This document shows, piece by piece, positions 1 through 32,327 of a stretch of DNA of 36,296 bases. The stretch is from contig JWZX01001705.1 in assembly GCA_001275005.1 (NCBI GenBank), positions 1-36,296 of the forward strand. The letters run 5' to 3'. Source of the DNA: Chrysochromulina tobinii (Eukaryota). The first letter of the stretch is position 1. Every line of letters begins with the position of its first letter. A model generated the notes under the pieces. The model made no database searches, was not told the origin of the DNA, and saw only the letters and a program-made list of their open reading frames with translations. The translations under genes and the position numbers were made by a program.

Positions 1-672
1 AGCGACAACATCTCGTCGGTGGCGTTTTCGCCCGATGGCACGAAGATTGTCTCAGGATCGTACGACAAGACGATCAAAGTCTGGGATTCGGGTGTGCCGG
101 AGCCCTCAAATCGCGCCTCCTTGGCCAAAACTGATGCCTGCTGGCTTGTCTGGCAGACAAACTTGAGATGCTGAGCGAGAAGACGAACGCCCACAGCCAC
201 TGGGTCATGTCGGTGGCGTTTTCCCCGGACGGGACCAAGATTGTGTCTGGATCGGGTGACAAGACGATCAAAGTTTGGGATTCGGGTGCGCCGCTAGCCC
301 TCAAATACGCCCCTCCTTGGCCAAACTGACGCCTGCTGACTTGTCTGGCAGGCAAACTGGAGCTGCTGAGCGAGAAAACGAACGCTCACAACAGCGTGGT
401 CACGTCAGTGGCGTTTTCCCCGGACGGGACCAAAATTGTGTCAGGATCGAACGACCCGACGATCAAAGTCTGGGATTCGGGTGCGCCAAAGCCCTCAAAA
501 TCGCCCCTCCTTGGCCAAACTGACGCCTGCTGGCTTGTCTGGCAGCCAAACTGGAGCTCCTGAGCAAGAAGACGAGTGCGCACAGCGACTACATCAACTC
601 GGTCGCGTTTTCCCCGGACGGGACCAGGATTGTCTCTGGATCGGACGACTGGACGATCAAAGTCTGGGATTT
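1..672 (+). repeat. Tandem ~194-195 bp exon+intron unit, about 3.5 copies
   Basis: Each unit is a 129-nt exon plus a 65-66-nt intron. All three introns share gccctcaaa..cctccttggccaaa(a)ctga(c/t)gcctgctg(g/a)cttgtctggcag. Confidence 0.95.
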
Positions 673-820
673 GGTCAAGTGGTCTCGCAAAGATCATTTG
701 ATGTTCAACGTCACCACACAGCGATTTGTCTTGCTGGTGCTGTGGCTGAACAAATACAGCATGAAGTTTCATGATGATGTGCTTGATCTGCTCATTGAAG
801 CTTGCTTGCAAAGCAGGTGA
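1..820 (+). CDS. 3' part of a WD40-repeat protein with highly conserved repeats; exons <1-91, 157-285, 352-480, 546-820
   Basis: Manual splicing at GT..AG introns 92-156, 286-351 and 481-545 gives continuous repeats of the form (K)[40 protein letters not shown]. These are followed by the tail [48 protein letters not shown] and TGA at 818-820. The ORF track misses it because of the introns. Confidence 0.9.
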
Positions 821-18169: not shown

Positions 18170-19171
18170 TCATGCGTGCGGAAACGGCCCTACAAGGAAC
18201 GGATCGCCCTCTGCAACGCCATCGGGGACCACCACATCAAATTCGCGCCCGTCCTCGAGTTGGACCCGCAACGCTCGACCCTCGCCAAGCTCTGCCGGGC
18301 AGACAACCTGCAGCAGGCCGGCGCTCGCCTCGGGCATCTCCTCGGGCTTCGCGTCGAGCATCTCGATCTCGTCACTGCGCCCAGCCGGCGGCGGCAAGAT
18401 GACGGAGTCGATGATGTGGATGACGCCGTTGGTGCACTCGATGTCGGTCGTCACGACCTTAGCGCCGTCGACCATGACGCCGTCCTTGCCGACCTTGATG
18501 GTGATCTCGGCGCCGTTGACAGTGGCCACTTTCTTGCCGTCCATGGTGACGACAGTGCTGGCCATGACCTTACCAGAGACCACGTGGTACGTGAGGATAC
18601 TCGCGAGCTTCGCCTTGTTCTCGGGCTTGAGGAGCGCCTCGACGGTCCCTAAAGGCAGGTTGGCAAAGGCAGCATCCGTCGGCGCGAAGACGGTGAATGG
18701 CCCTGCACTCTTCATGGTGCCGACGAGACCGGCAGCACCAAGAGCTGAGGCGAGGGTCTTGAAAGCGCCAGCGCCAACTGCTGTGTCAACGATGTCGATC
18801 CTCTTCGGAGCCGCGGCCGCAGGCGCCGCAGCGATCGTCTCTGCAGGAGGAGCACTCGCAGTGGCGGCCTCCTGCATCATTTGACGTAGCTTAATGATTC
18901 GCTTTCTCGCAAACTCTTCCTCGTTCCGGTTGATCATCTTGATCAGATTCCTTTTGTTGTCGATTTGGGCCCACAAGTCGTCGTCCATGCCCCATTCGCG
19001 CAGCTTTGCCGGTACTTTGGAGCCCTTCAATAGCGTGGAGCCACGTGGTAGCGGCGGAGAAGCGGAGGTGATCGATTCTTGCATCGACGCTAAGAGTGAC
19101 CGTTTTACGCTGTGTTGAAAAGTGGCGGCGTGCAGCCAGCCATTCACCAGCAGCAGCGTGGAGAGCAGCAT
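18170..19171 (-). CDS. Fasciclin (FAS1) domain protein with an N-terminal targeting peptide
   Basis: Contains [35 protein letters not shown] and [19 protein letters not shown]. The likely start is [15 protein letters not shown] at 19171. Confidence 0.9.
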
Positions 19172-19259
19172 GGTGAGAATCGCGGCGTGAAAAGGCCTTC
19201 TGTGAAGCACAAGAAGTCGACCCTCGGTTTCATACACATACACTCTCCCAGCCGAACTG

Positions 19260-19931
19260 TCATACGACCCTCATATTGTATGTGGAAGACTCCACCGCAA
19301 CCGCATGCTTCCCGCCTGCAGCATGATCCTCCTCCGGCTCGTCCACAGCCATGGAAGAATACCCAGGGCTGCGGTTGAAGCAGCACAAGCACCGTCGATA
19401 GAGTGATGGACGCTTGGCACTACATGTAGCGTCCTCATCGGCCGCTCGAACTTGCAGCACGGATGATTCAGGAAAAAGCTCACTTGCATGGGCTGCCCAG
19501 CGCGCGGCTGGGCTTCTGTCCTCCTCCTCAACACCAGGCTCTGGTTCAGCAAAGAGCTCACGCGCACGATCGACCCAGCGTGCGGCATCGCTGACCTCGG
19601 TTGGTTCTGTAGACGCCTTAGCTGGCGGCAACAGCACCGGTCTAGGAGAATCGTCCGCAAGCGTGAGGCGGGATGAGGCGGGTCCCGATGTGACGGGCCC
19701 CGACAGAGCTTCGATCTTCCTTCGCCAAGCCGCAACCTCATCGTCTTCGTCCAAGGAAACTGCACTCCAAGATGCTGGATCCTCGTCCACACTCTTCTGA
19801 ATCTGCTCGATTCGTTCCATGGATGACTTGATATTTAATGCTAGTGCATTCTGCATCGCCGATACTTCAGCCATGGCGGCCATTGCTTGCAGGCGTTCGC
19901 GCACAGAGGCAAGATGCGAGTCAGCATCCAT
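19260..19931 (-). CDS. Hypothetical protein (coiled N-terminus, internal AARW..ELF repeat, Cys cluster)
   Basis: Open frame from MDADSHLAS with plausible composition. No recognisable family. Confidence 0.5.
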
Positions 19932-20558
19932 CGAGGAAGGTGAGGACAGAGTGTGCTGACGAGACTCTCTCCATTTCTCCGTTTGAAACGCGTCCCTTTT
20001 TCGTTCTTCAAGTTGCATGCCAAACTTTCGTGAAGCAAATTGGTTTCAAACCCGTCGGCGCACCTGGCACACACGGAGCCGTTGCGCCTGCCGCCCTTCA
20101 CGTTGTTCGCCCCTGAAGGCAACCAGTCTAGCGCTCTCGCGCTATAACCCACCTATCTCTATCTCCGCTTCTCGGCCGCATTCGGATCTATGTGGCAGGA
20201 CACGCAGGATTAATCAGGATTAATAGGTACGTGAGGAGGGGCGTGGGCCTCCAGTGGGATGGGATTTGGGGTTTCGTTGAGGTAGTCGTCGACGGAAAGA
20301 GTGTGATTGAGGTTGTCTCACCGGCTCCGGCTTCGCAGTGTGAGGTGCTGACTGCTGACTGCTGTACTACACCGGGCCGTAGTAGTGTACGGTACAACGG
20401 TGTAGACCGTACACGCTACACCCGCACCGTTCGACGTTAGGGGTTAGGACGTTGATCGAGATATGTAGTATTGTGACAAAGAATTATACCTTCTAGCTTC
20501 TTTGACCTAATTCCTAAACGTAGTAACATGTGTGTCCAACTCGGCTCATCACCGATGA

Positions 20559-21377
20559 CTATGTCTCCACGCTCCTGAAGATCTGAGTGAAAGTTCCCTT
20601 GGGCGCGCGGTAGCCCTCGGGCAGCAGGCGCTGCTGCAGCCAGTTGAAGGCATATTGGCCGAGGGCCCCCATGTTCTTGCGCATGTTGAGCCAGCGCACG
20701 CCGTGCGAGCGCATCGCGTCGAGCAGCTCATTGGCCTCAGCCTCCGAGACGGCGTGCCGCTCGTGCAGCAGCCGCGCCTGCTCCGCGGTCACCGCCATGC
20801 TCGTGCGATCCTTGCCCGACTTGCAAGAGGTGATCCGTCCGCCACCAAGCTCGCGCACGAGCCGCTCAGTGAGCGCGATCACCTCGGTGTCCTTGTTGAC
20901 GAGCTCAACGGAGCGCAGGATGGTCGCCTCGACAGCATGCATCAGCTCGCGCAGTCGGCGCCGCTCGAGCTCCAAGTCGAACTTGGCGGTGCTCGAGATG
21001 CCATCTCGGTTGGAGATGCCATCTCGGTCGGCGATGCCATCTCGGGTGGCGGTGCTCGAGATTCCAACCGAGATGCCAACCCCCCGCCCACTGACCTCGC
21101 CCGAGCCTAAGGCCGTTGTCGTGTTGGACGCGGTGGAGGAGGCAAAGCTGATGTAAGCCTCGTGGTAGCGTCGCAGCAGCTCGAGTGCACGGCAGTTGAT
21201 GATCTCCTGCAGCTCCGCGTGCCCGACCGCGTTGGCCATGCTTTGCTGCGCGTTGATGCCCTGCGAGATCAGCGCGACGATACAGCGGATGAGCTGCCCT
21301 TGCTTGAGCTCTTCGGGCAGCTCGGCCCACCGCGCAGGCGGCATGAAGATCTCGAGCACGAGATTGCGGCTGCCGGG
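20559..21377 (-). CDS. C-terminal catalytic part of an inositol polyphosphate 4-phosphatase (INPP4-like); 5' part not found
   Basis: Contains the CX5R motif ITSCKSGKDRTSMAVT(AEQ), QGINAQQSMA, MRSHGVRWLNMRKN and YAFN..Q..LLPEGYRAP.GT. A candidate acceptor (ccggcag) ends at 21378. The Gly-rich N-terminus in the ORF track is the antisense of the SPPPP repeat. Confidence 0.85.
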   Translation of the reverse strand, partial: PGSRNLVLEIFMPPARWAELPEELKQGQLIRCIVALISQGINAQQSMANAVGHAELQEIINCRALELLRRYHEAYISFASSTASNTTTALGSGEVSGRGVGISVGISSTATRDGIADRDGISNRDGISSTAKFDLELERRRLRELMHAVEATILRSVELVNKDTEVIALTERLVRELGGGRITSCKSGKDRTSMAVTAEQARLLHERHAVSEAEANELLDAMRSHGVRWLNMRKNMGALGQYAFNWLQQRLLPEGYRAPKGTFTQIFRSVET

Positions 21378-21399
21378 CTGCCGGCCACGCGCACGTGCG

Positions 21400-21576
21400 C
21401 CACCGCCGCCCTCGCCGCCGCCGCCCTCGCCGCCGCCGCCTTCGCCGCCGCCGCCTTCGCCGCCGCCGCCCTCGCCGCCACCGCCCTCACCGCCGCCGCC
21501 CTCGCCACCGCCGCCCTCGCCACCGCCGCCCTCGCCACCGCCCTTGCCGCCGCCGCCCTCGCCACCGCCGCCCTCG
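21400..21576 (+). repeat. 15-nt tandem repeat encoding (SPPPP)n extensin-like linker
   Basis: About 11-12 copies of tcgcc(g/a)ccgccgccc. Confidence 0.95.
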
Positions 21577-24500
21577 ATGCCGCCCACGCAAATGGTGCGC
21601 GCGCTCGCGCTCCTCTACGAATCCTCGGGCGGCAACGCGTGGCGCAACAACTTCAAATGGATGTCCGGCGAGCCGTGTGTCGACGGCTGGTTTGGCGTGC
21701 ACTGCTGCCCCCAGGCGCTGCCGGTCCTGCGCGGGGACGACGAGTGCACCGCCGACGGCGTCGGAGCCACCGGCGTGCTCACGACGCAGGGCAGCGCCGC
21801 CTGCCACTCGGGCTCCGTCACGGGCACCGCCCTCGACCTCGCCACCTGCGTCGTCGTCAAGGTGCTGCTGCCGTCCAACAACCTGATCGGCTCACTCGAC
21901 GGCGCGCTCTGCGGGCTGCAAAACCTGCAGCACCTCGACCTCTCGGGCAACGCGCTGATCGGTGCGCTGCCGTCGACAGCAGACTGCCTGCCGCAGCTCA
22001 CGTCTCTTGACTTAACGGTACGACGGGGATGGGAAGATCCGGGCGGCTTTTCTGGCCACGTGCCCGAGTGGCTCCTCGATCGCCTCGACTTTATGGCGCC
22101 GCTGCGCCTCGCCAACAACGCCTTCCACGACCCGACGGCCGCCGAGTCCGCCGTAGCGATCAGCCGGCTCTGGCAGCGCTGCTCGACGCTCGGCGCGGAG
22201 CAGTGCTCGGGCGTCCCGCCGACTGGCTGCAGCGCTTTCAACCGCCAGGGCCAGCGCTACGAGGTGGAGCTCAACGGCCTCGGATGCGTGCGCTGCCCGA
22301 CGCCGCTCGAGGTTTTTGGCATCGCCGGTGGCGTTGCGGGCGGGGTGCTGCTCTTTGCGCTGCTCGTGGGCATGTACACGCGCTTCGTGCGCAGGCACCC
22401 GGAGTACGCCAAGACCCACGTCGCCTCGGGCATGATCCTCGTGGGCCACCTGCAGACGCTCTCCATCATCGGCAGCTTGCAGCTTGGCTGGCCGCTCATC
22501 ATCCAGGAGATCCTCGCGAGCATCAGCCTGCAGCTCATGGGCTACATCCCGTTGCCGTGCATCCTGACCGACCCGGTGCTCAAGGCGCTGCTGAGCTACG
22601 CGGAATCCGCCGTTGTGATGCTGCTGCTCGTGGGCGCCTGGCTCGTCGCGCGGCGCCGGCGCGACACGGACGGCCTGCTGCGCGAGAGCGAGGCGTGGGC
22701 CGAATACTTTCTGAGCGTGCTCTTCAGCCTGCTCTTTACTGTCGGCCTCCGTGCGAGCGCGACCCTCTTCGCGCGCTACGACGAGGACCAGTCTCGGCAG
22801 GTGACCTCCCGCTTTGTGGCGACGCTCCTCTGGTTCTTCTGGCTCTTCCTGTTCTGGCGCTTCCGCCGGCTGCTGCGCGAGGCCCAGGAGGCGGCGAGGG
22901 AGGCGGCGATGGAGGCTGCGAGAGATGTGCGGCTGCGGCGACGGGCGCGTCGCGCGGCAGAGGCGGTGCGCTACCTGACCGAGCGGTACGCGAGCGACGA
23001 CGGCCCTAGTCATGGTGACTTCCTGCTTTGGGCGGAAAAGCATATCGATGAACCCGTTCGCGATCTGCTGGCCAATGGCACCATCCGGCTGTTGCGCTGT
23101 GCGTGGTTGCTCTCAGCGGACTCGGACAAGTACCTGGGTCGCGATGCGTCCGGTAGGGTGATCATGCGCCGGCGGCAGGAGCTGCCCGAGGAGGCCTTCT
23201 TTACGAATGAAGAAGCGGTCGCGTTGCTCGATCGCGCCGACCGCTCGATTCTCGCCCTCTCCTATCGATGGCTGACCGCATTACATCCGGATCCGCACGG
23301 CATGGCGCTCCTCGCCGTGCGCCGCTTCCTCCGCAGCGAAGCCGGCCTCGACAAGTGCGGAATGTTTTGGGACTTCACCTCGCTTCCGCAGAAGGACATC
23401 ACCAATGGCCAACGTACGGACGATGAGAAAGACACCATGAAGCGCGGGCTTGCTGGTATGGGCAACTTTTACGCGAGCACGTGCGGCACGGCTGTCGTGC
23501 AGCTCAAGGACATCCCGCCGCGTCCGTCCGAGTACGACGGGCGGATGATCGTCTTCGATCAGGCGTTCTCCGAGTCGACGAGCGAGAAGGATGTGAAAGC
23601 CCTCCGAAGCGATCTCGAGCGCTCTGGAGGGAAGATCACCAAGATCGCCATCAAGGCGGGCGAAGCGCACGTGACCTTAGCAACTCACGAGCAGGCGAAA
23701 AACTGCATCGCTGCACTGCACAAGGTCGGCCGTGGTGCGGACACTGTGTACAACGAGACCGCCTATAGCCGCGGCGACGGGCGCATGATCGTCTTCGATG
23801 GCGAGTACTCCGAGAAGACGAGCGAGAAGGATGTGATCGCCGATCTCGAACGCTTCGGAGGGAAGATCGCTCTCAAGGCGGGCGAGGCGCAAGTGACCGC
23901 CATCAAGGCGGGCGAGGCGCAAGTGACCTTTGCAACGCACGAGCAAGCAGAGCGCTGCATCGCTGCACTGCGCAAGGTCGGCCGTCGTGCGGACACTGTG
24001 TACAACGAGCCGTTTACCTTTAGCGGCTGGTGCACTTTCGAGCAGGGCGTCTCGAAGATGGTGGCGGCGCACTTGAACAAGGCATCCCGCCAGGCCAAGG
24101 AGCGCTCGGCCGTGCTGCCGGAGCCCCTTTTGCGCGCCAATGCCAGCCGAGCCAAGGTCATTGACATTAGCGATGAGAAGGTGCGCAAAGTCGAAGTGAC
24201 GGAGTCTCCAGACGCACTCCTCAAGCAGACGAACGATGACCTCGGGAACGCAAAGTTTGTCGGCAAGGGCGAGGCCGTGACGGTCAAGCAGCAGCTCGCC
24301 AACTTCGAGTGGTCGATGAACATGGCCATGGAGCAGGCCACCGCCGAGCACGTTAGGAGGGAGCAGCTCGCTCGTGCACAGTGGCCACTCCGCTCGCAGT
24401 GGCAGCTCGTCGTGTGGACGCGGCAGGGGCTCCTCTTCCTCTTGTCCTTCGCCATGGACTGTGTGATGTGGCTATCGCCGTACGAGGCGCACCGGACCAC

Positions 24501-27500
24501 ACGCTACGTCTTTGCCGCGCTCGCGATCGCCGTCCTCGGCGGCTTCTGGCGGCTGCAGGCCCAGCGTCAGCCGTACGCGATGCGTCGGCAGCATAGGCTC
24601 GAAGTTTTCCTCTACGTGGTCGACATCCTCGTCATCTTCCTCGCCTGCCTGTACGGCGCACTCACGAACGACGGTGCGGTGCAGGACGCGTCCGGGCGGC
24701 TAGCGCTCGAGCTGGGCCTTGGCGCGCTGCTCATCGTCTCCGTGGTCGGTGCGGTGCTGGTCGTCGTGCGCGACGTCGTGCGCGAGCGCAGGTACATCCG
24801 GCAGCGGTACCTAAAGGCGACGCAGTTTTTCGACGTGCCGATCGTGGCCGCCATCCGCGACGGCGCAGTGCGCCTCATCGACTATGCCTGGTTGTTAGAT
24901 CCTGCGCGCTTGCGCTTGGATGATGGGCAGTTGCCGCGCGTCACTAAGGTGGAGGCACGCCTCCCTTCCAACGAGCCGACGAGCGCGCTGATTCGAAGGT
25001 TGGCGACGCACTGCGGGACCTCGTCCATCTGCATCACGGTGGGGACGGTTAAGGTGGCCTCGGCAGCCTCGCTACCCCCCTCGCCGCCTCCCTCTCCTCC
25101 GGAGGTGGCTGCCTCGGATAGAGAGCTCGAGGATTGGTCTTTCCCTGGGCTCAAGACTCGCTTCAAAAACGAGCTGGCCGAAGCGGACCTTGCGCAGCTC
25201 GCGCCCGCGATCATTGAGAAGCTTGGCATCCGATCTGTGGAAAAGCTCCGCGAGTTCAAATTCGACGAGCTCAAGGACAAACTCAAGGCCGCGGCCGGCG
25301 TGACACTCAGACCGGGGCATACCAAGAAGCTCAAGGCGTTTCTCGCCAAGCCTAGTGGCACGGAACTCGTCTCCATTCGGACGATCGTGAGCGAGCGCAC
25401 GAAAGGTTCGCCCGCTCAAAGCTCGACGGCGCTTGCACCGCGCAGCGGCGCGTACCTAGCAAGCCAGCCACTCTACCACAACGACTCGTATCCGTTGCAT
25501 GAGTCGCCGCTGCAGCCACAAAGATCACGATCGGCCGAGCACGACAGCGAGCGCAACGAGTCGGCCCACGACCACGCCAAGTCAATGCCGGGGCGCGCCA
25601 CTTGGAACGGCTCGCCACCTCCATCCAAGGTCACAACCAGCGCTCTGCCGAATACAGTAGACATAACCTTCCACCTCAGCACGTTTGACGAGGCCGCCCC
25701 GCTCACCGCAGCCGGCCTGCGCCGCAAGGCCGTGGAGGTTCGCGACAGGCTAGTTGAGCTTGGGGCCACGGACGTCCACATTGTCACGGGCGCGCTTTTT
25801 CTCCCACGCTGCCAGGATATGCCGTCGAAAGCCTTCCTGCCACCCGAGCGCGCCGCGGACCTCTTTGCGCGGGGGTGCCGCAGAGTTGACGTCGTCAGCT
25901 ATTGCCGGCGCAGCCCTGGCGTGCCCGACCACGATGGCCGCACGCTCGAAACGATCCTCAACCACGCGAAGAATGTGAAGGGCGCAGACGGTGACCGCGG
26001 TCTGTTCGTGGACTTTGCGTGCATCCCGCAGACCTTTGCATGGCCGTCGTGGCACGCCCCGGAGACGGTCCCGCTGCGCTTCGGCGCCGAGGTGGACCAG
26101 GGCGCCGAGGTGGACCAGGGAAAGCTCAAAGTGCTCAAGTTTGAATTGGAGCACGTCGCCACGGAGGACGAGGCGCAGGTTTGCGTCGACAAGCTCGTCT
26201 CCGTATGCGAGGAGCAAAAGTGGGCGCTGGCCTCCATTGCGGACTTGGAGGGCGTCGGCCTGCGCTCACGCCGTGCGCTCTTCCACGGACGTTACATCTC
26301 CGGCGCGTACCGCTTCGACGAGGGAGCCGATGCCGAAGGCTTCGTGCGTTTCAGCGAGGAGAAGGACGCGGAGAAGGCACGGCGCCATCCCGAGCTCGTG
26401 CGCATGTGCCGCGGCAAGGAGCCAAAGCTGATGGGCGAGCGCGTCTTCGAGAATGAGCTCAAGTCTCGCCGCGCCCTCTCCGTCATGGGCAGCCTCTACG
26501 CGTCCGCCACAGGCACCTGTGTGCTGCAGCTCACGGACCCGCCGGTGCTGCAGCTCACGGACCCGCCGGGCGAGCTCGGGGACGACAACGAGCTCGTCTC
26601 CGAGCACACGGGGACCGTCTTCGTCGTGGAGCTTGAGAAGCTGCAGAAGCTGCAGAAGCTGCAGAAGACGCTCAAGGAGCTGCAGAAGGCGCTGCAGAAC
26701 GAGCTGGGTGACAAGTCGCTCGAGGAGCTGCAGAAGGAGCTGCAGAAGGAGCTGCAGAAGGAGCTGCAGAAGCTGCAGAAGGAGCAGAAGACGCTCAAGG
26801 AGCTGCAGGAGAAGCTGGTCGGCGAGTTGCGCAGCTTCTTTGGCAGCTTCTTCTGCGGCAAGTCGCTCAAGGAGCTACAGAAGGCGCCTAAGGAGCTGCA
26901 GAAGGAGCAGAAGGAGCAGAAGGAGCAGCAACTGCAGCAGCTGCAGAAGCTGCAGAAGCTGCAGAAGTCGCTCGAAAAGCTGCAGAAAGAGCTGGTCGGC
27001 GAGTTGCGCAGCTTCTTTGGCAGCTTCTTCTGCAGCAAGTCGCTCAAGGAGCTACAGAAGGCGCTGCAGAAGGCGCTGCAGAACGAGCTGGGTGACAAGC
27101 CGCTCGAGGAGCTGCAGAAGGCGCTGCAGAAGGAGCTGGGCGACGGCGGCGTGCTGGCTTGCGAGAAGAAGGGGTCGGCGGGTGTAGTAGTGGTGCGTGT
27201 CCTCGGGGAGAAGGCGGCGCGCGCCGCGCGCTCACTGAGCGAGGGCGGCTATCCACTTCGTCGTAAGGATCGCGTGGTGTACCCAATGCGCAACTTGGGG
27301 CCGTACGGCTCGTGCGGGTGGCCGACCTTTGAGACGGCCGCCGCCTCGATTGTGCTCGCGCACCTCACGCAGCACAAGCGGGGGGATGGGGCGCTTCCGC
27401 CTGCCGTCGCGCAGGCGGAGAAGAGCAGTCCAAAGCTCATCAACATCGACACCATCGACCGGAAGGTGGTCGCGCAGTCGCCAGAGCGCCTCCTCCGCGA

Positions 27501-28215
27501 GTGCGAAAAGGGTCTGTGCGCGTCTCCCTTCGGACGCTGGCGACCTCCTCCATGCGCGTTTGTGTGTGCGGAGGAGGCGCAGTCGGCAGAGCGCCTCCTC
27601 CGCGAGTGCAAGTTGAAATTGCGCTCCAAGCGGATCTTTTTCACCGGGGAAGCCGAGCGGAAGCAGGTCGTCCAGCTGCTCTCCGACTTTGAGGACTTGA
27701 TCGCGCTCGAGTTTGACCAGAAGCGCCCCGAGCACCTCAAGCTCAGGACGGAGGACCTCGAGCACGCGCACACCGCGGAGCTGCGCGAGGCGCGCAGGAG
27801 GCGATCCCGCAAGGAGCAGGAGAGCCTCCGAAGACACGTGGAGGATGAGCCGACGCACACAAGCTACGCCAAGACCGAGGTCGCCACTAAGGATCCGTTG
27901 CGCAAATCGGCGCGACTGTCTGCGACTCCATCTCTTCACCTGCTTCCACAGAAGTTGCCAGCGCCCCAGCGCTACCCCATCGCCAGCAGAGTGTTTGTGA
28001 CACGCAACAACGGAGCGGAGACTCTCGCCTATGTCAAAGCGTACGATGCCGTGCAGCAAAAATACACGGTGGAGCTCGAACAGCTTGACTCTAAGAAGTT
28101 CAAGAAGTGCGACGAAACATCGCTGCGAGAGTTCAACGTATTAGGGGTTATCCTTATCTCTGCACGCGATATGTTCCGCCCTGCACGCGTCGACGATGAC
28201 CTCTTCGATGCATAG
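21400..28215 (+). CDS. Giant receptor-like membrane protein: SPPPP linker - LRRNT/LRR - ~9 TM with an inserted HET-like module - second HET-like module with SAM-like, RRM-like and coiled-coil inserts - C-terminal SH3/Tudor-like barrel; 5' end uncertain
   Basis: LRRNT (ALALLYESSGGNAW..W..GEPC..WFGVHC) and plant-type LRRs (LPSNNLIGSL, LDLSGNALIGALP) are present, with hydrophobic helices at 22312-22860 and 24400-24780. HET-like motifs occur twice: SYRWL..HPDP/FWDFTSLPQ/MGNFYA/GWCTFE and SYC../FVDFACIPQ/MGSLYA/GWPTFE. The frame is uninterrupted for 6.8 kb. Confidence 0.8.
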   Translation, partial: PPPPSPPPPSPPPPSPPPPSPPPPSPPPPSPPPPSPPPPSPPPPSPPPLPPPPSPPPPSMPPTQMVRALALLYESSGGNAWRNNFKWMSGEPCVDGWFGVHCCPQALPVLRGDDECTADGVGATGVLTTQGSAACHSGSVTGTALDLATCVVVKVLLPSNNLIGSLDGALCGLQNLQHLDLSGNALIGALPSTADCLPQLTSLDLTVRRGWEDPGGFSGHVPEWLLDRLDFMAPLRLANNAFHDPTAAESAVAISRLWQRCSTLGAEQCSGVPPTGCSAFNRQGQRYEVELNGLGCVRCPTPLEVFGIAGGVAGGVLLFALLVGMYTRFVRRHPEYAKTHVASGMILVGHLQTLSIIGSLQLGWPLIIQEILASISLQLMGYIPLPCILTDPVLKALLSYAESAVVMLLLVGAWLVARRRRDTDGLLRESEAWAEYFLSVLFSLLFTVGLRASATLFARYDEDQSRQVTSRFVATLLWFFWLFLFWRFRRLLREAQEAAREAAMEAARDVRLRRRARRAAEAVRYLTERYASDDGPSHGDFLLWAEKHIDEPVRDLLANGTIRLLRCAWLLSADSDKYLGRDASGRVIMRRRQELPEEAFFTNEEAVALLDRADRSILALSYRWLTALHPDPHGMALLAVRRFLRSEAGLDKCGMFWDFTSLPQKDITNGQRTDDEKDTMKRGLAGMGNFYASTCGTAVVQLKDIPPRPSEYDGRMIVFDQAFSESTSEKDVKALRSDLERSGGKITKIAIKAGEAHVTLATHEQAKNCIAALHKVGRGADTVYNETAYSRGDGRMIVFDGEYSEKTSEKDVIADLERFGGKIALKAGEAQVTAIKAGEAQVTFATHEQAERCIAALRKVGRRADTVYNEPFTFSGWCTFEQGVSKMVAAHLNKASRQAKERSAVLPEPLLRANASRAKVIDISDEKVRKVEVTESPDALLKQTNDDLGNAKFVGKGEAVTVKQQLANFEWSMNMAMEQATAEHVRREQLARAQWPLRSQWQLVVWTRQGLLFLLSFAMDCVMWLSPYEAHRTTRYVFAALAIAVLGGFWRLQAQRQPYAMRRQHRLEVFLYVVDILVIFLACLYGALTNDGAVQDASGRLALELGLGALLIVSVVGAVLVVVRDVVRERRYIRQRYLKATQFFDVPIVAAIRDGAVRLIDYAWLLDPARLRLDDGQLPRVTKVEARLPSNEPTSALIRRLATHCGTSSICITVGTVKVASAASLPPSPPPSPPEVAASDRELEDWSFPGLKTRFKNELAEADLAQLAPAIIEKLGIRSVEKLREFKFDELKDKLKAAAGVTLRPGHTKKLKAFLAKPSGTELVSIRTIVSERTKGSPAQSSTALAPRSGAYLASQPLYHNDSYPLHESPLQPQRSRSAEHDSERNESAHDHAKSMPGRATWNGSPPPSKVTTSALPNTVDITFHLSTFDEAAPLTAAGLRRKAVEVRDRLVELGATDVHIVTGALFLPRCQDMPSKAFLPPERAADLFARGCRRVDVVSYCRRSPGVPDHDGRTLETILNHAKNVKGADGDRGLFVDFACIPQTFAWPSWHAPETVPLRFGAEVDQGAEVDQGKLKVLKFELEHVATEDEAQVCVDKLVSVCEEQKWALASIADLEGVGLRSRRALFHGRYISGAYRFDEGADAEGFVRFSEEKDAEKARRHPELVRMCRGKEPKLMGERVFENELKSRRALSVMGSLYASATGTCVLQLTDPPVLQLTDPPGELGDDNELVSEHTGTVFVVELEKLQKLQKLQKTLKELQKALQNELGDKSLEELQKELQKELQKELQKLQKEQKTLKELQEKLVGELRSFFGSFFCGKSLKELQKAPKELQKEQKEQKEQQLQQLQKLQKLQKSLEKLQKELVGELRSFFGSFFCSKSLKELQKALQKALQNELGDKPLEELQKALQKELGDGGVLACEKKGSAGVVVVRVLGEKAARAARSLSEGGYPLRRKDRVVYPMRNLGPYGSCGWPTFETAAASIVLAHLTQHKRGDGALPPAVAQAEKSSPKLINIDTIDRKVVAQSPERLLRECEKGLCASPFGRWRPPPCAFVCAEEAQSAERLLRECKLKLRSKRIFFTGEAERKQVVQLLSDFEDLIALEFDQKRPEHLKLRTEDLEHAHTAELREARRRRSRKEQESLRRHVEDEPTHTSYAKTEVATKDPLRKSARLSATPSLHLLPQKLPAPQRYPIASRVFVTRNNGAETLAYVKAYDAVQQKYTVELEQLDSKKFKKCDETSLREFNVLGVILISARDMFRPARVDDDLFDA
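26630..27140 (+). repeat. Coding 9/12-nt microrepeats (LQK/ELQK) with a nested ~177-nt duplication
   Basis: ctgcagaag and gagctgcagaag arrays. The block ggcgagttgcgcagcttctttggcagcttcttctgc occurs at 26821 and 26998. Confidence 0.9.
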
Positions 28216-28523
28216 AATGGTTCTGGGCGGCATGTGCACAAAGAGTTTCACTACCTGCTTCCATGCAGACCGCAACCCAGACCCAGTAACCTGCCGCCTG
28301 TACAGAACTCGACTGTCTCCTGTAATACATGTAATAGTTGTACGAAGCTGTGTCTCGTGTGGCGTGGCCTGAATTTGTCGCCGTACAATACAAACGAGCG
28401 CAGTAGACATTCAATTCTTTGTAGCAAATCAATACCGCCGACTGTGGGCCGGGCTCACGAGGATTCGCGTGACGAAACCGCCGTGCTGAGCGCTAGGGTT
28501 TTTTGCGCTGTCGGTGGTCCCGC

Positions 28524-30480
28524 ATGACTCCACACACGATCCTCTGCGGCGACGTGGTATCAGCACTAATATTCCAGGGCGCGTTGTGGGTTTTCACCAT
28601 TGCTATCAGCTTGGTCGTCATTGGCATCCCACGCAGGAAATTTGCACAGCAGGTCGAACAGTTGGCGAGCCAAAACCCGCTCGCCTTCATTGCGCCCGAC
28701 CTTGATAAGTTCCGGCACTCGTTTCAAATCAAGCTGCCCAAGTGCGGCGTGGTGATGCCAGTGAAAGGCGTGCACGATCAGTCGTACGCCAACTGGCGAG
28801 CTCAGATAACATCCATGTACGGCGGCCCCCTCGAGTTTTTCTTCTGCCTGGAGTCAGCTGATGACCCAGCCTTCCGACATGTCCAGCGGCTGATCGAGGA
28901 CAATCCGGACGTGCAGATCAACCTCCTCGTGGCGGGCCTCTCCTGGCACTGCTCGCAGAAGATCCACAACCAGATACATGGCTTCGAGCGCGCCATGCGC
29001 TCGTGCGAGTACGTGATTGTCATCGATGATGACATCAAGTTGCATCCGGGCACGATCCGCGCGTGGGTGGAAGAGATGGAGACGGACCCGCAAGTGCTCG
29101 CCGCCACAGGTTACGCCTTTGAGTACGTGGCACCGGGCGAAATCGGCTGGCCCTCGTTCTTTGCGATGCTCTGGCGCCTTTGCGCGTCCACAGGCTTCAA
29201 CTCCCCAACCGACCGACCGCCCAACGCCTGGGGCGGCGCTATGATGTTTCGAGCGAGTGAGCTGCGAGCGAACCTCTACGGGCTGCTAGATGCGTGGCGC
29301 GACGGCGGCTACTCAGAAGACTTCATAACCCTCTCCATGGCAAGGTGAGCGCGTCCCTGTCGCGTCCCTGTCGGGTTGCATGCGGCACGAGGTTGCACGA
29401 GGTTGCACGAGGTTGCATGCAGCCCTCGCACGTGATGAGGGGACGCTTCCGCTCATCATGGGACGCTTCCACTCCCCACGCAGGTACCAGGGACGGACGC
29501 TCGCGGTGCCCAAGGCGGCGATGTTCCCGAACCAAATCGGCGACGTGAAGTTCGACCGCTTCTGGAACTTTCTGTGCCGGCAAATCTACGTGCTCACGCA
29601 GACGTATGCCACCGACACGCAGCGTGCGATCGCCATCCCGCAATACGCGATGAACGGCGCGGCGCACGCATGCATCGCGATCGGTGGCGTGTGCGCCTCG
29701 CTGCTCACTATGTACCTGCTGGTTGCCATGACGGCGGGGGCGCTCGCGGAGCCGTGGCACAGCCCCCAGCCAGCACCGCTGGGTGCTCATGGGCAGTGCA
29801 ACTTCGCCGCCGGTGCGCAGAGCATGCCCAACGAGTGGCCGACGTGGCGATCCGCATTCACATTCACACTCACTCTCACATTCACATTCACACGAGTGGC
29901 CGACGTGGCGATCCGCACTGCTCTCACATTGCCGCTTGGTCCTCTCACACCCATCCGATGCTTCCATACCTGCCGTTTGGTCTTCTCACATTGCCCGTTT
30001 GGTCCTCTGGCCGGAATGGCAGGTATGGCAATGGTATATTGGGTGGCGCTGCTCTTCTTTGGGTCATCCGCCATCTTCACCCTTCGCTCCTTCGCCTCAT
30101 TGTGCAATGTGCTCTCGCCTCATGGTTTTGGCGGCACGCCCATCGACGTGAGCCACATCGGTGCCCTGCGCGTCGGCCACTGATGATGGCAACTGATTTG
30201 CGTCGATTGCTTTCCTCATCAGGTGAGCCACATCGGTGCCCTGCGCGTCGGCGTCGCGTACCTGCTCTACGCAGCGCTGATCCCAGCTGCGACGATCGCG
30301 ACGCTGTGGAACTCTGCGATTGTGTGGTCGGGCGTGCGCTTCCACATAACACGAGGGCGTGTCTCGGCGATGCACCGCAAGGATGCCAAGGGAAACTGGT
30401 TCACGGTGCCAGCTGCGGAGTCGATTGAGAACGCTATGAAAGAGCTCGCGCGCTTCCAGCAAGCTTCACCCTGCAGGTGA
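28524..30480 (+). CDS. GCS: Plant-type ceramide glucosyltransferase (glucosylceramide synthase, GT21/GT2 fold); exons 28524-29344, 29484-29812, 30023-30147, 30223-30480
   Basis: N-terminal TM, then VVMPVKGV, CSQKIHNQ, IDDDIKLHPG, WGGAMM, GGYSED and RQIYVL, with C-terminal TMs and IVWSGVRF. Three GT..AG introns join in frame. The 3' end is less certain. Confidence 0.85.
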
Positions 30481-31069
30481 GGTGTGGAGCTGCCGCTGGA
30501 GTCTCGCAAGCGCAGCGCGAGGTGCAGCCCCAGCGGTCCGGCAGCTGCCCGATGGGGTCCACGAGCTACTCGGCACGCCGCCGCATAGCCTCGGCCAGTG
30601 CCTATCGGCACCCACACCGTCCCTTAGAGACGTATAGCCTGGACTCAACCCTGGACGTGCCCAGCCGCCGTCGACGTTCGCGACGGCGATAGAGGCAGTG
30701 GACGGGCGCAAGTCGAATTGGCCAGCTCAAGGCCAGCTTTGCTCGGGAGCCCGTTCGGCATCGTGAGCGCACTGTTCCTGGTGGTGGTCTGGTGGTGCAG
30801 AGAGCTGCTCACTGTGACGTCACGTCACACCCGCCGGGGCTCCCTGATGCGACACGTGCACGCTGGTCCGGCACCGGCTGCACGACCACCGGGACGTCTT
30901 ACAAGCCGTAACGCTCCGACGCTAGCCTCCTGCTGTCGACATGTGCGTCACGTGATTCGGGTCAGAACATTGATAACTATTCTAAGTCGGAAGTCGCGCG
31001 CACGCCCGCAGGGGCCTATTGCGCATCCCATCCGCATCTCTTCTGCCCGATCTTGCTAGCTTGTTCTCG

Positions 31070-31759
31070 TCACTGTGCCTTCTTCCAAAGCCCATGCTGG
31101 GTGCGAATCTGGCGGACTCTTTCTTCGGGGAGAAACCTCTCCGCCTCAGCATCCCACGGTTTGTACCCAACCGCCTTGAGTGCAGCCAGCTCATCCGCCG
31201 TGAAGATCGCCTCAATCGCCTTCCTCTCATTCGTAAACACCGGGTAGCCTGGGAGGATAAACGGTTGAAACCCTTGCCCATCGTGCGTGTCCAGCTGAAT
31301 CTGCGTGCCCGGCGCAAGCACCGTCTGAGGCCCGAGCGGGCGCCCGTCTTTATCGCGCACATCGGGCGGTCTCCGTGAAACTGTTTGTTGCGTTCCGGCA
31401 CCGTGGCCCTCGCGCCCAAAGACGAAAGGCTCGAAAGCGTCCCAAAGGGCTTCATGACCAATACCCATGACTTTGGACAGTAGCAGGGTGCCGAGTCCAA
31501 TTTTCCACCAGCTTTCCCAACTGTCGTCCACAATCGTCCAAAAGGTGGCGTAGAGGTGTAGCAGGCCAACTAAGGGAATGGAATCGGGCAGCCCGCAAAA
31601 CAGGCGGCCTTCAGTGACCACAATCGAAACGGGCAGCCACCAGAAAAACGTATAGAGAGGGAGGAAGCACGCCCAGAGTGCAACGAATGGCGCTGCTGAC
31701 AAAGAGCAGAAAATGAACGAGGGCGGCGACGACGGCGGCGGCATGGCCGCGTCGTGCAT
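31070..31759 (-). CDS. Hypothetical membrane protein
   Basis: 229-aa ORF with 2-3 hydrophobic, Trp-rich N-terminal segments and a soluble C-terminus. No family recognised. Confidence 0.55.
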   Translation of the reverse strand: MHDAAMPPPSSPPSFIFCSLSAAPFVALWACFLPLYTFFWWLPVSIVVTEGRLFCGLPDSIPLVGLLHLYATFWTIVDDSWESWWKIGLGTLLLSKVMGIGHEALWDAFEPFVFGREGHGAGTQQTVSRRPPDVRDKDGRPLGPQTVLAPGTQIQLDTHDGQGFQPFILPGYPVFTNERKAIEAIFTADELAALKAVGYKPWDAEAERFLPEERVRQIRTQHGLWKKAQ

Positions 31760-31923
31760 CGGCGTCGCACGAGTTCGTCAAGCACGTGGCTAAAAGGTCA
31801 GTCAGTCAAGCAGTTTCGTCGCGGCTACCAGGTGTGAACTGTTTGTTAATCTCGGCAAAACACCCATACGCTCGTTATCCGAGTACGCCGGTACTTGCGT
31901 GGCCCTCGTGCTTGGGGGTCCGG

Positions 31924-32011
31924 AGTGTGTGCGCGCGTTGTGTTGAACAGCAGCAGCAGTACAGTGTGTGTGCGCGTTGTGTTGAGCAGCAGCAGCAGCA
32001 GCAGTACAGTG
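31924..32011. repeat. Tandem duplication containing (CAG)n microsatellites
   Basis: agtgtgtg(c/t)gcgcgttgtgttga..(cag)n-tacagtg occurs twice. Confidence 0.85.
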
Positions 32012-32229
32012 CAAAGCTGGCACACATTGGAGGACAGATCCCAACCACGCCTGAGGGAGGGCTTCGGGTGCACATGGAACACGCTCTGTCATGTAGGGTA
32101 CAGGCGAGCTGGTCATTGCAGCCGCTCGCGCTCTGTCGATTGATACAAGAAAATGTTCAGCGAGCGCTGTCCGTAGAGAAACTGTACATCTCGAGGACGG
32201 TCGTGTGATCTTGTCCTCGTTGGTATTGC

Positions 32230-32296
32230 CATGGTGAGCGCGTCATGGTGAGCGCGTCATGGTGAGCGCGTCATGGTGAGCGCGTCATGGTGAGCG
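32230..32296. repeat. 14-nt tandem repeat CATGGTGAGCGCGT, ~4.8 copies
   Basis: Directly visible just 3' of the minus-strand gene ending at 32328. Confidence 0.95.
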
Positions 32297-32327
32297 GGAG
32301 GTGCATGCACAGCAAGAGGTGAGATCC

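What the first reader, a model, noticed from the sequence alone, without database searches (positions are those of the whole stretch)
21400..28215. Candidate algal immune receptor: LRR ectodomain + multi-pass membrane core + two HET(TIR-like) effector modules
Seen: one reading frame joins a Pro-rich stalk, LRRNT + LRRs, a Cys-rich juxtamembrane segment and about 9 TM helices. It also carries two ~450-aa paralogous modules with the same motif order: IRLL..AWLL, R.Q++P..AF, SY...P..PD..G, F.DF..+PQ, MG..YAS..GT.V+QL, GW..FE, K+I+I, F.G..E...V.Q.L.+FE. Established: SY.W / W.D..CI.Q / M..IY / RGW..QE-type motifs define the fungal HET domain, a TIR-related cell-death effector, and LRR ectodomains are ligand sensors. 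Inference: this is a Toll-like-receptor-style sensor-effector protein built on a polytopic membrane scaffold, an architecture I do not recognise as described, possibly acting in virus, pathogen or allorecognition-triggered death.
Basis: partly seen in the sequence, partly recalled or inferred. Interest (0 to 1): 0.85.

Follow-up and report, generated by a model that had tools for sequence, protein, structure and literature searches.

The report
Algal multi-pass receptor, twin TIR-like modules
A freshwater-alga gene family joins a short leucine-rich-repeat region and about nine predicted membrane helices to two copies of an unnamed domain that likely resembles the TIR/HET immune enzymes, one copy inserted into a loop from another gene, so it is likely a modular surface receptor of a layout not found in our literature searches.

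Summary
The frame is real (21169-28215, no stop). It belongs to a multi-copy family whose named paralogs are from Chrysochromulina. Layout: Pro-rich stalk, 3-4 LRRs, Cys cap, nine predicted TM helices, two likely cytoplasmic modules.

The modules belong to a large unnamed domain family (6,963 clusters). No Pfam HET hit. Motif order and predicted secondary structure run colinear with TIR, and the Glu (182 of 186 relatives) aligns with TIR's conserved Glu. Profile support is weak (HH probability 3%) and fold searches returned only RRMs.

New here:
- Module 1 is an inserted cassette: a paralog lacks it, and it is 79-84% identical in DNA to another subfamily's C-terminal module. Tandem duplication is rejected (AU p=0.0006).
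- RRM-fold domains sit just before the Glu helix.
- Module 2 is diverged and about 970 aa.
- The window's 5' end is probably mis-joined through the Pro repeat; two other assemblies continue into a SEA-like domain.

Lake RNA contigs cover the gene in pieces. Enzyme activity and immune role are untested.

The parts
20559..21345 (-). 3' part of an INPP4-like phosphatase gene (CKSGKDRT motif), not part of the receptor; probably joined to it by the assembler through the shared repeat
   Evidence: phmmer hit to the P-Rex2 C-terminal region E=1.1e-6; the INPP4 name is recalled from the motif; a DNA contig of X1 covers 19590-21427 with no difference and ends in the repeat
21398..21584 (+). Pro/Ser stalk, (CCGCCGCCCT)n-type repeat; the true gene probably extends 5' through a SEA-like segment and further Pro repeats
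   Evidence: L001 and L003 diverge from the window 5' of 21400 and stay in frame
21592..22296 (+). LRR N-cap-like Cys-rich segment, 3-4 LRRs, Cys-rich juxtamembrane cap
   Evidence: LRR_8 E=1.4e-6 at 21862-22017; LRR motifs; relatives' LRRs score best against plant receptor-kinase LRRs; dN/dS 0.41
22312..22860 (+). predicted TM1-5 of a nine-helix scaffold, weakly like PF06011 (fungal TRP/Flc type)
   Evidence: hydropathy, flanking charges; PF06011 E=0.089, 12 bits against a cut-off of 28.5
23005..24380 (+). module 1: HET/TIR-like cassette inserted in the loop between TM5 and TM6; intact motifs; Glu at 24040-24042
   Evidence: joint 23004/5 to 24381 in DNA and RNA contigs; L066 has a 21-aa loop here; 79-84% DNA identity to the C-terminal module of L008; AF2 pLDDT 90.8
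23521..24003 (+). two tandem RRM-fold inserts between the third core strand and the Glu helix of module 1
24406..24771 (+). predicted TM6-9
   Evidence: an RNA contig of X12 bridges module 1 to TM6 (L003 3487-3712 = window about 24304-24529, 2 differences)
24820..27726 (+). module 2: diverged C-terminal HET/TIR-like module (SY.W to SY.R, FWD to FVD; Glu kept at 27331-27333) with several inserts
   Evidence: dN/dS 0.50-0.91 by block
25135..25362 (+). SAM-like insert in module 2 (weak)
   Evidence: PF22931 E=0.027, below cut-off; no PDB hit
26636..27138 (+). QKEL-type tandem repeat, coiled-coil-like insert in module 2
   Evidence: dN/dS 0.91
27964..28215 (+). C-terminal tail with a small SH3/Tudor-like segment (resemblance recalled, no significant Pfam hit); paralogs carry a kinase or PDZ in this region

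Best explanation
This is an expressed member of a haptophyte family of likely cell-surface receptors: a Pro-rich stalk and short LRR/Cys ectodomain on a predicted nine-helix membrane scaffold, with two predicted cytoplasmic modules that likely adopt a TIR/HET-type fold and would signal, most likely by cleaving NAD+, when ligand binding clusters the receptor. Shown: the frame, the motifs, the family, and that module 1 is an insertion related to the C-terminal module of another subfamily. Inferred: topology, TIR-type fold, catalysis. In my reading module 1 (intact motifs) is the active unit. Module 2 (diverged motifs, relaxed selection, SAM-like, coil and tail additions) acts more as scaffold or second output. 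The likeliest use is recognition of non-self at the surface (virus, parasite, bacterium).
For: Relatives from other algae show LRR or other ectodomain + the same TM scaffold + one C-terminal module (P0013, P0027, P0030, P0034, P0035 from Haptolina brevifila, P0075, P0079). The same module is also found N-terminal to NACHT(-ANK) (P0014, P0105, P0141, P0173, P0180, P0190) and to LRRs (P0072, P0073), the positions where TIR and HET occur. AF2 model (47 sequences, pLDDT 90.8, pTM 0.85) gives strand-helix-strand-helix-strand, inserts, then the Glu helix, in TIR order. A forced hhalign with 49 bacterial TIR_2 domains lines up LSY/ISY, FWD/WFD, YAS/SD, VLQ/lfil and GWC.fE/S.wc..E over 83-86 columns; the only locally significant piece is the Glu helix (score 18.4, P=0.015; 30 shuffles at most 16.3). 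Glu is present in 182 of the 186 proteins that have the GW motif, of 202 held. Dyrka 2014 (PMC4986451, passages) reports HET homologs in Haptophyceae and a three-block HET-TIR likeness ending at helix C. RNA contigs of four lake studies cover the gene in pieces, while the intergenic bins 19500-19833 and 20168-20501 have depth 0 in the three RNA runs. Six paralogous frames of 6.6-9.2 kb have no stop, with dN/dS 0.41-0.65 outside module 2.
Against: No Pfam HET hit, and no TIR hit on the module, in the window or in the rows shown for 201 relatives. The HH probability against TIR is only 3%, no better than TIR against an unrelated receiver-domain control (score 18.1), and in global mode the score (7.0) lies inside the block-shuffle range (up to 10.8). 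dN/dS is only mildly below 1 and near 1 in parts of module 2; the 15 pairs are not independent. The LRR region is the most conserved part (87% identity), not a hypervariable sensor. No infection data. Reviews state that HET structure and biochemistry are not determined (PMC10890737, PMC12881547; passages).
Confidence: 0.45

Rival explanations
1. Same receptor layout, but used for non-immune surface sensing such as prey capture, adhesion or mate or kin recognition in a mixotrophic alga.
For: N-terminal tips differ among paralog loci: SEA-like (L001, L003, L004, L006, L009, L013), Cys-rich repeats (L005), PMP-like repeats (L011), an unidentified beta-rich segment (L066). Some paralogs end in a kinase or PDZ. 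The LRR part is conserved.
Against: The module also sits on NACHT-ANK proteins, a conflict-system context; copy expansion and module swapping are typical of immune families (general knowledge). Tip variety may partly be mis-assembly across the Pro repeats.
Confidence: 0.22
2. The modules are non-catalytic adaptors, as in animal Toll-like receptors, that recruit soluble modules or kinases.
For: Many soluble module proteins exist in the same kind of contigs (L030-L080), one about 2 kb downstream of a receptor gene (L066). Module 2 has lost conserved Trp residues.
Against: Near-invariant D, S, Q, Y, GW and E across a very divergent family look like an active site; module 2 keeps the Glu.
Confidence: 0.15
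3. A receptor-channel: the TRP/Flc-like scaffold conducts ions and the attached modules make an ADP-ribose-type gating ligand or are gated with it.
For: Two colinear weak PF06011 matches: TM1-2 of the window (E=0.089) and the last helices of P0046 (E=0.013).
Against: Both are far below the cut-off; a 440-aa domain is tolerated inside the scaffold; no pore was modelled.
Confidence: 0.08
4. A decaying, recombining multi-copy family that piles up domains without a selected function, or an assembly mosaic of paralogs.
For: Repeat-rich, many in-frame inserts, dN/dS 0.8-0.9 in parts of module 2; the 5' join in this window looks wrong; short contigs fit several paralogs.
Against: Three other assemblies match 21400/21551-32324 at 99.8% or more; at least six distinct paralogs keep the same two-module frame without a stop at dS 0.2-0.3; an RNA contig bridges module 1 to TM6.
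Confidence: 0.1

Closest known systems
Fungal HET domain (PF06985; HET-E, TOL, BH)
   Same: Motif series RLL / SY.W / W.D...Q / M..+Y / GW..E (HET consensus recalled, not from a call); conserved Glu; large lineage-specific expansion; use on NACHT proteins; homologs reported in Haptophyceae (PMC4986451, passages).
   Different: Does not score on PF06985; has RRM-fold inserts before the Glu helix; here attached to a polytopic membrane protein with an ectodomain, which the HET passages I read do not describe.
TIR domains (PF13676/PF01582), Toll-like receptors, SARM1
   Same: LRR outside and a TIR-like unit inside (predicted); colinear secondary structure; Glu in the equivalent helix; a weak SAM-like insert recalls SARM1.
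   Different: Nine predicted helices instead of one; 3-4 LRRs; two modules, one in an internal loop; profile similarity to TIR is not significant.
Gephyrocapsa (Emiliania) huxleyi membrane TIR proteins induced in viral infection (PMC12489294, section 20 read)
   Same: Haptophyte; extracellular region or several TM helices followed by an intracellular TIR with a conserved Glu; proposed receptor role.
   Different: Those were defined by Pfam TIR profiles (HHsuite probability 50% or more) and stated to lack LRRs; this family has LRRs and no Pfam TIR hit by hmmscan. Their Table S9 was not seen, so overlap is not excluded.
Fungal Flc/Pkd2 'TRP' family (PF06011)
   Same: Ectodomain plus about nine helices; weak colinear HMM matches.
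   Different: Scores 12-15 bits against a cut-off of 28.5; LRR ectodomain; enzyme-like cytoplasmic modules.

Membership tests
HET (PF06985) | Score above the Pfam gathering cut-off | tested here: not met
   No hit at E<=1 for the ORF or either module; none in the rows shown for 201 relatives at E<=0.01-0.5 (only the best 5 families are shown for long lists)
HET (PF06985) | Three conserved blocks alignable with fungal HET sequences | tested here: inconclusive
   Motifs are present in order, but no HET sequence could be obtained; the consensus is recalled
HET (PF06985) | Cell-death activity on expression | not testable with these tools
   needs an experiment
TIR | Five-stranded parallel alpha/beta fold | tested here: inconclusive
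   Order of strands and helices fits; fold searches were filled by the RRM inserts, so the core was barely tested
TIR | Profile similarity to TIR | tested here: inconclusive
   Colinear over 83-86 columns when forced, probability 3%, P=0.015, equal to the TIR-receiver control
TIR | Conserved Glu in helix C | tested here: met
   GW..E aligns with the 97%-conserved TIR Glu; Glu in 182 of 186 proteins with the motif; kept in both modules
TIR | NAD+ cleavage | not testable with these tools
   needs an assay
Toll-like receptor | Single TM helix, long LRR solenoid, canonical TIR | tested here: not met
   about 9 TM, 3-4 LRRs, no Pfam TIR hit
Flc/Pkd2 TRP (PF06011) | Score above cut-off over the TM domain | tested here: not met
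   12 bits and 14.8 bits for P0046 against 28.5; the TM region was not folded
RRM (inserts) | RRM fold | tested here: met
RRM (inserts) | RNP1 aromatic residues at positions 3 and 5 | tested here: not met
   E and H/Q in the window; no aromatic among the five commonest residues at position 3 or 5 in 69 pattern matches, a few of them spurious

The most novel reading that the evidence does not exclude
Haptophytes have an undescribed repertoire of enzyme-coupled, multi-pass immune receptors: exchangeable extracellular tips on Pro stalks, a TRP/Flc-like membrane core, and a new NAD-cleaving HET/TIR-type domain that moves as a cassette between genes and carries RRM-fold regulators plugged in beside its catalytic helix. 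It would be a Toll-like-receptor logic evolved on a different scaffold in a single-celled alga.
Probability: 0.3. Interest if true: 0.85.

Novelty: new variant of a known kind. Interest (0 to 1): 0.62.

Why it matters
Algal antiviral receptors are largely unknown and HET biochemistry is an open question. This gives a large unannotated domain family (6,963 clusters at 50% identity) with a testable Glu, a receptor context for it, and a clear case of an effector module inserted into a membrane-protein loop. Natural pairs with and without module 1 (window against L066) make the function directly testable.

Tried and rejected
Single-sequence fold: pLDDT 43, not used. No module hit in NCBIfam (9 proteins) or PADLOC (1 weak hit among 49 members). 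No relative by pattern scan in prokaryote genomes or viral contigs. Profile A4 gave 1 weak hit in 201 cyanobacterial-phylum genomes, in an unrelated aldolase-like frame. Plasmid tblastn gave chance hits only. HET reference sequences were not found: 0 of 401 and 0 of 401 genomes, with no positive control ringing, and 0 matches to two recalled motifs in viral contigs. ESM Atlas gave unnamed haptophyte clusters under 0.9, leads only. Complex prediction of module 1 with module 2 of paralog P0008: no answer, score 0.00, alignment not used; no evidence either way. The third homolog search covered only 1267-3615 aa and gave 1 hit. Tandem duplication as the origin of the two modules is rejected (AU p=0.0006 on 34 of the 75 rows, 132 columns, LG+G4; the group was set after the tree had been seen, and one row of that tree, P0008_m1, had a mis-picked block). 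No GT..AG joint among the joints shown (15 of 103; the 9 listed), so no intron is shown; NCBI models P0009 and P0012 lack internal parts, perhaps through predicted introns. Literature searches found no description of this architecture; the library lacks most subscription papers, and supplements (Table S9 of PMC12489294) and the Fig. 6 alignment of PMC4986451 were not seen.

Full report
Observation. The + frame 21169-28215 is open for 2348 codons (translation). It holds a Pro/Ser repeat at 21398-21584, an LRR_8 match (E=1.4e-6) of 3-4 repeats, a Cys-rich cap, and hydrophobic segments that I read as nine TM helices, five before and four after module 1. Lys/Arg counts after helices 1, 3, 5, 7 and 9 are 4, 5, 4, 4 and 6, against 0, 3, 2 and 1 after helices 2, 4, 6 and 8. 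That fits N-out, C-in with both modules inside; it is a simple estimate, not DeepTMHMM.

Source and family. No genome is held. Two close paralogs are named Chrysochromulina tobinii by NCBI (P0009, P0012), and the RNA runs that hold the stretch are lake samples. Of the best 80 of 161 metagenome loci, 12 have the LRR-TM-module-TM-module order and fall into six distinct paralogs; L066, L072, L076 and L078 have the scaffold with module 2 only. A profile of the module finds 6,963 clusters at E<=0.001 among 1.84 billion representatives. Among the 202 proteins held, the module occurs after this TM scaffold, before NACHT, LRR, MORN or ankyrin repeats, and alone.

The 5' end. L001, L002 and L003 match the window at 99.8% or more from 21400 or 21551 to 32324. 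L001 and L003 then run on in frame through more Pro repeats and a segment with a GSVV motif that I read as SEA-like (recalled; no significant Pfam hit), as do L004, L006, L009, L011 and L013. The window instead joins the last 260 codons of an INPP4-like gene on the minus strand, which lacks its own 5' part here. A mis-join through the repeat is the simplest reading; contigs cannot bridge the repeat, so it is not proven. The true start, signal peptide and tip are therefore outside the window. Tips differ among loci, but mis-joins could cause that too.

Module 1 is an inserted cassette. Contigs of one DNA run and three RNA runs join 23004/5 to 24381 with 13-14 other bases. L066 reads through this loop in 21 residues, other algal relatives in 11-12, and the two-module proteins in 397-476. 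Window 23023-24359 is 84% and 79% identical in DNA to the C-terminal module of L008, whose scaffold is different. In trees, internal modules group with the C-terminal modules of single-module proteins (100/96; 99), and module 2 forms a separate long clade. Holding modules 1 and 2 together is rejected (AU p=0.0006; caveats under Tried and rejected). As the outgroups carry this module type at the C-terminus, I infer capture into the loop.

What the module is. AF2 with 47 sequences gives pLDDT 90.8 and pTM 0.85: strands at 78-83, 115-117 and 158-163 alternate with helices, two RRM-fold domains follow, then the helix with GWCTFE, a strand and further helices. This is the TIR order, with the inserts just before the Glu helix. 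Against 49 bacterial TIR_2 domains, hhalign picks the Glu helix locally (score 18.4, P=0.015, above all 30 shuffles) and, when forced, aligns all blocks colinearly. But the probability is 3%, a TIR-versus-receiver control scores the same, and global mode is within shuffles. Pfam HET does not hit, and no HET sequence could be fetched; the HET motif likeness is recalled. PMC4986451 (passages) reports HET homologs in Haptophyceae and a three-block likeness to TIR. PMC9815663 (passages) notes the shared Glu. PMC10890737, PMC12881547 and PMC10197012 (passages) say the HET mechanism is unknown. I put a TIR/HET-type fold at about 80% and catalysis at about 55%. The RRM inserts lack the RNP1 aromatics, so RNA binding is not supported; 0, 1 or 2 copies occur across the family.

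Expression and selection. RNA contigs from four lake studies cover the gene in pieces; two intergenic bins have depth 0 in the three RNA runs. One RNA contig bridges module 1 to TM6; none spans the gene. Six paralogous frames have no stop. Pairwise dN/dS is 0.41 for the LRR region, 0.50-0.65 for the TM parts, 0.51-0.57 for module 1 and 0.50-0.91 for module 2 blocks (simple counting, GC-rich DNA, non-independent pairs). Module 2 has lost two conserved Trp residues but keeps the Glu.

Mechanism. Most likely a surface receptor in which ligand-driven clustering activates TIR-like modules, with module 1 the intact enzyme and module 2 a diverged scaffold or second output (0.45). Rivals: non-immune sensing (0.22), non-catalytic adaptor (0.15), decaying family or mosaic (0.10), receptor-channel (0.08).

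Novelty. Multi-TM proteins with a canonical TIR were reported in G. huxleyi, without LRRs (PMC12489294, section 20 and passages). PMC9503650 (one passage) mentions only a viral TIR. Ten searches found no account of LRR + nine TM + HET-like modules. Verdict: new variant of a known kind, interest 0.62.

Noticed in passing
window 20559-21614 (-): 3' part of an INPP4-like phosphatase gene whose frame runs into the (GGGGE)n reading of the Pro repeat; covered by RNA contigs. Its 5' part is missing here, which points to an assembly mis-join at about 21400-21580.
   Followed up: partly
L030-L080, e.g. L066:7017-8720: A large group of loci with a more distant module (34-38% identity). In the seven inspected, an apparent GT-AG intron splits the GW motif inside the Trp codon, and the next exon supplies CCCED with the Glu. 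In L066 one lies about 2 kb downstream of a receptor gene.
   Followed up: partly
L011:2115-13514: The 3800-codon open frame begins with what look like fragments of unrelated genes (one resembles acetyl-CoA carboxylase, recalled) before a signal-peptide-like stretch and PMP-like repeats; possible mosaic or mis-assembly.
   Followed up: no
L004:1802-1990 and P0002, P0004, P0006, P0009, L066: A small Tudor/SH3-like insert (PF18359 E=0.008) sits in the same TM5-TM6 loop in some paralogs, so this loop takes up domains repeatedly.
   Followed up: partly
L008:355-5860: Single-module receptor with about 15 near-identical tandem LRRs and an apparent intron before the last TM helices; probable donor type of module 1.
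   Followed up: partly
P0105, P0141, P0014, P0173, P0180, P0190: The same module N-terminal to NACHT-type ATPases (with ANK, PH, NUDIX or TCAD9): NLR-like proteins with this domain.
   Followed up: no
window 1-675: Tandem repeat of about 195 bases with a related array in L030 (80-88% identity).
   Followed up: no
window 18170-19270 (-), 28497-29348 (+): Neighbours are a fasciclin-domain gene and a GT2/GT21-type glycosyltransferase; no sign of a defence cluster.
   Followed up: no
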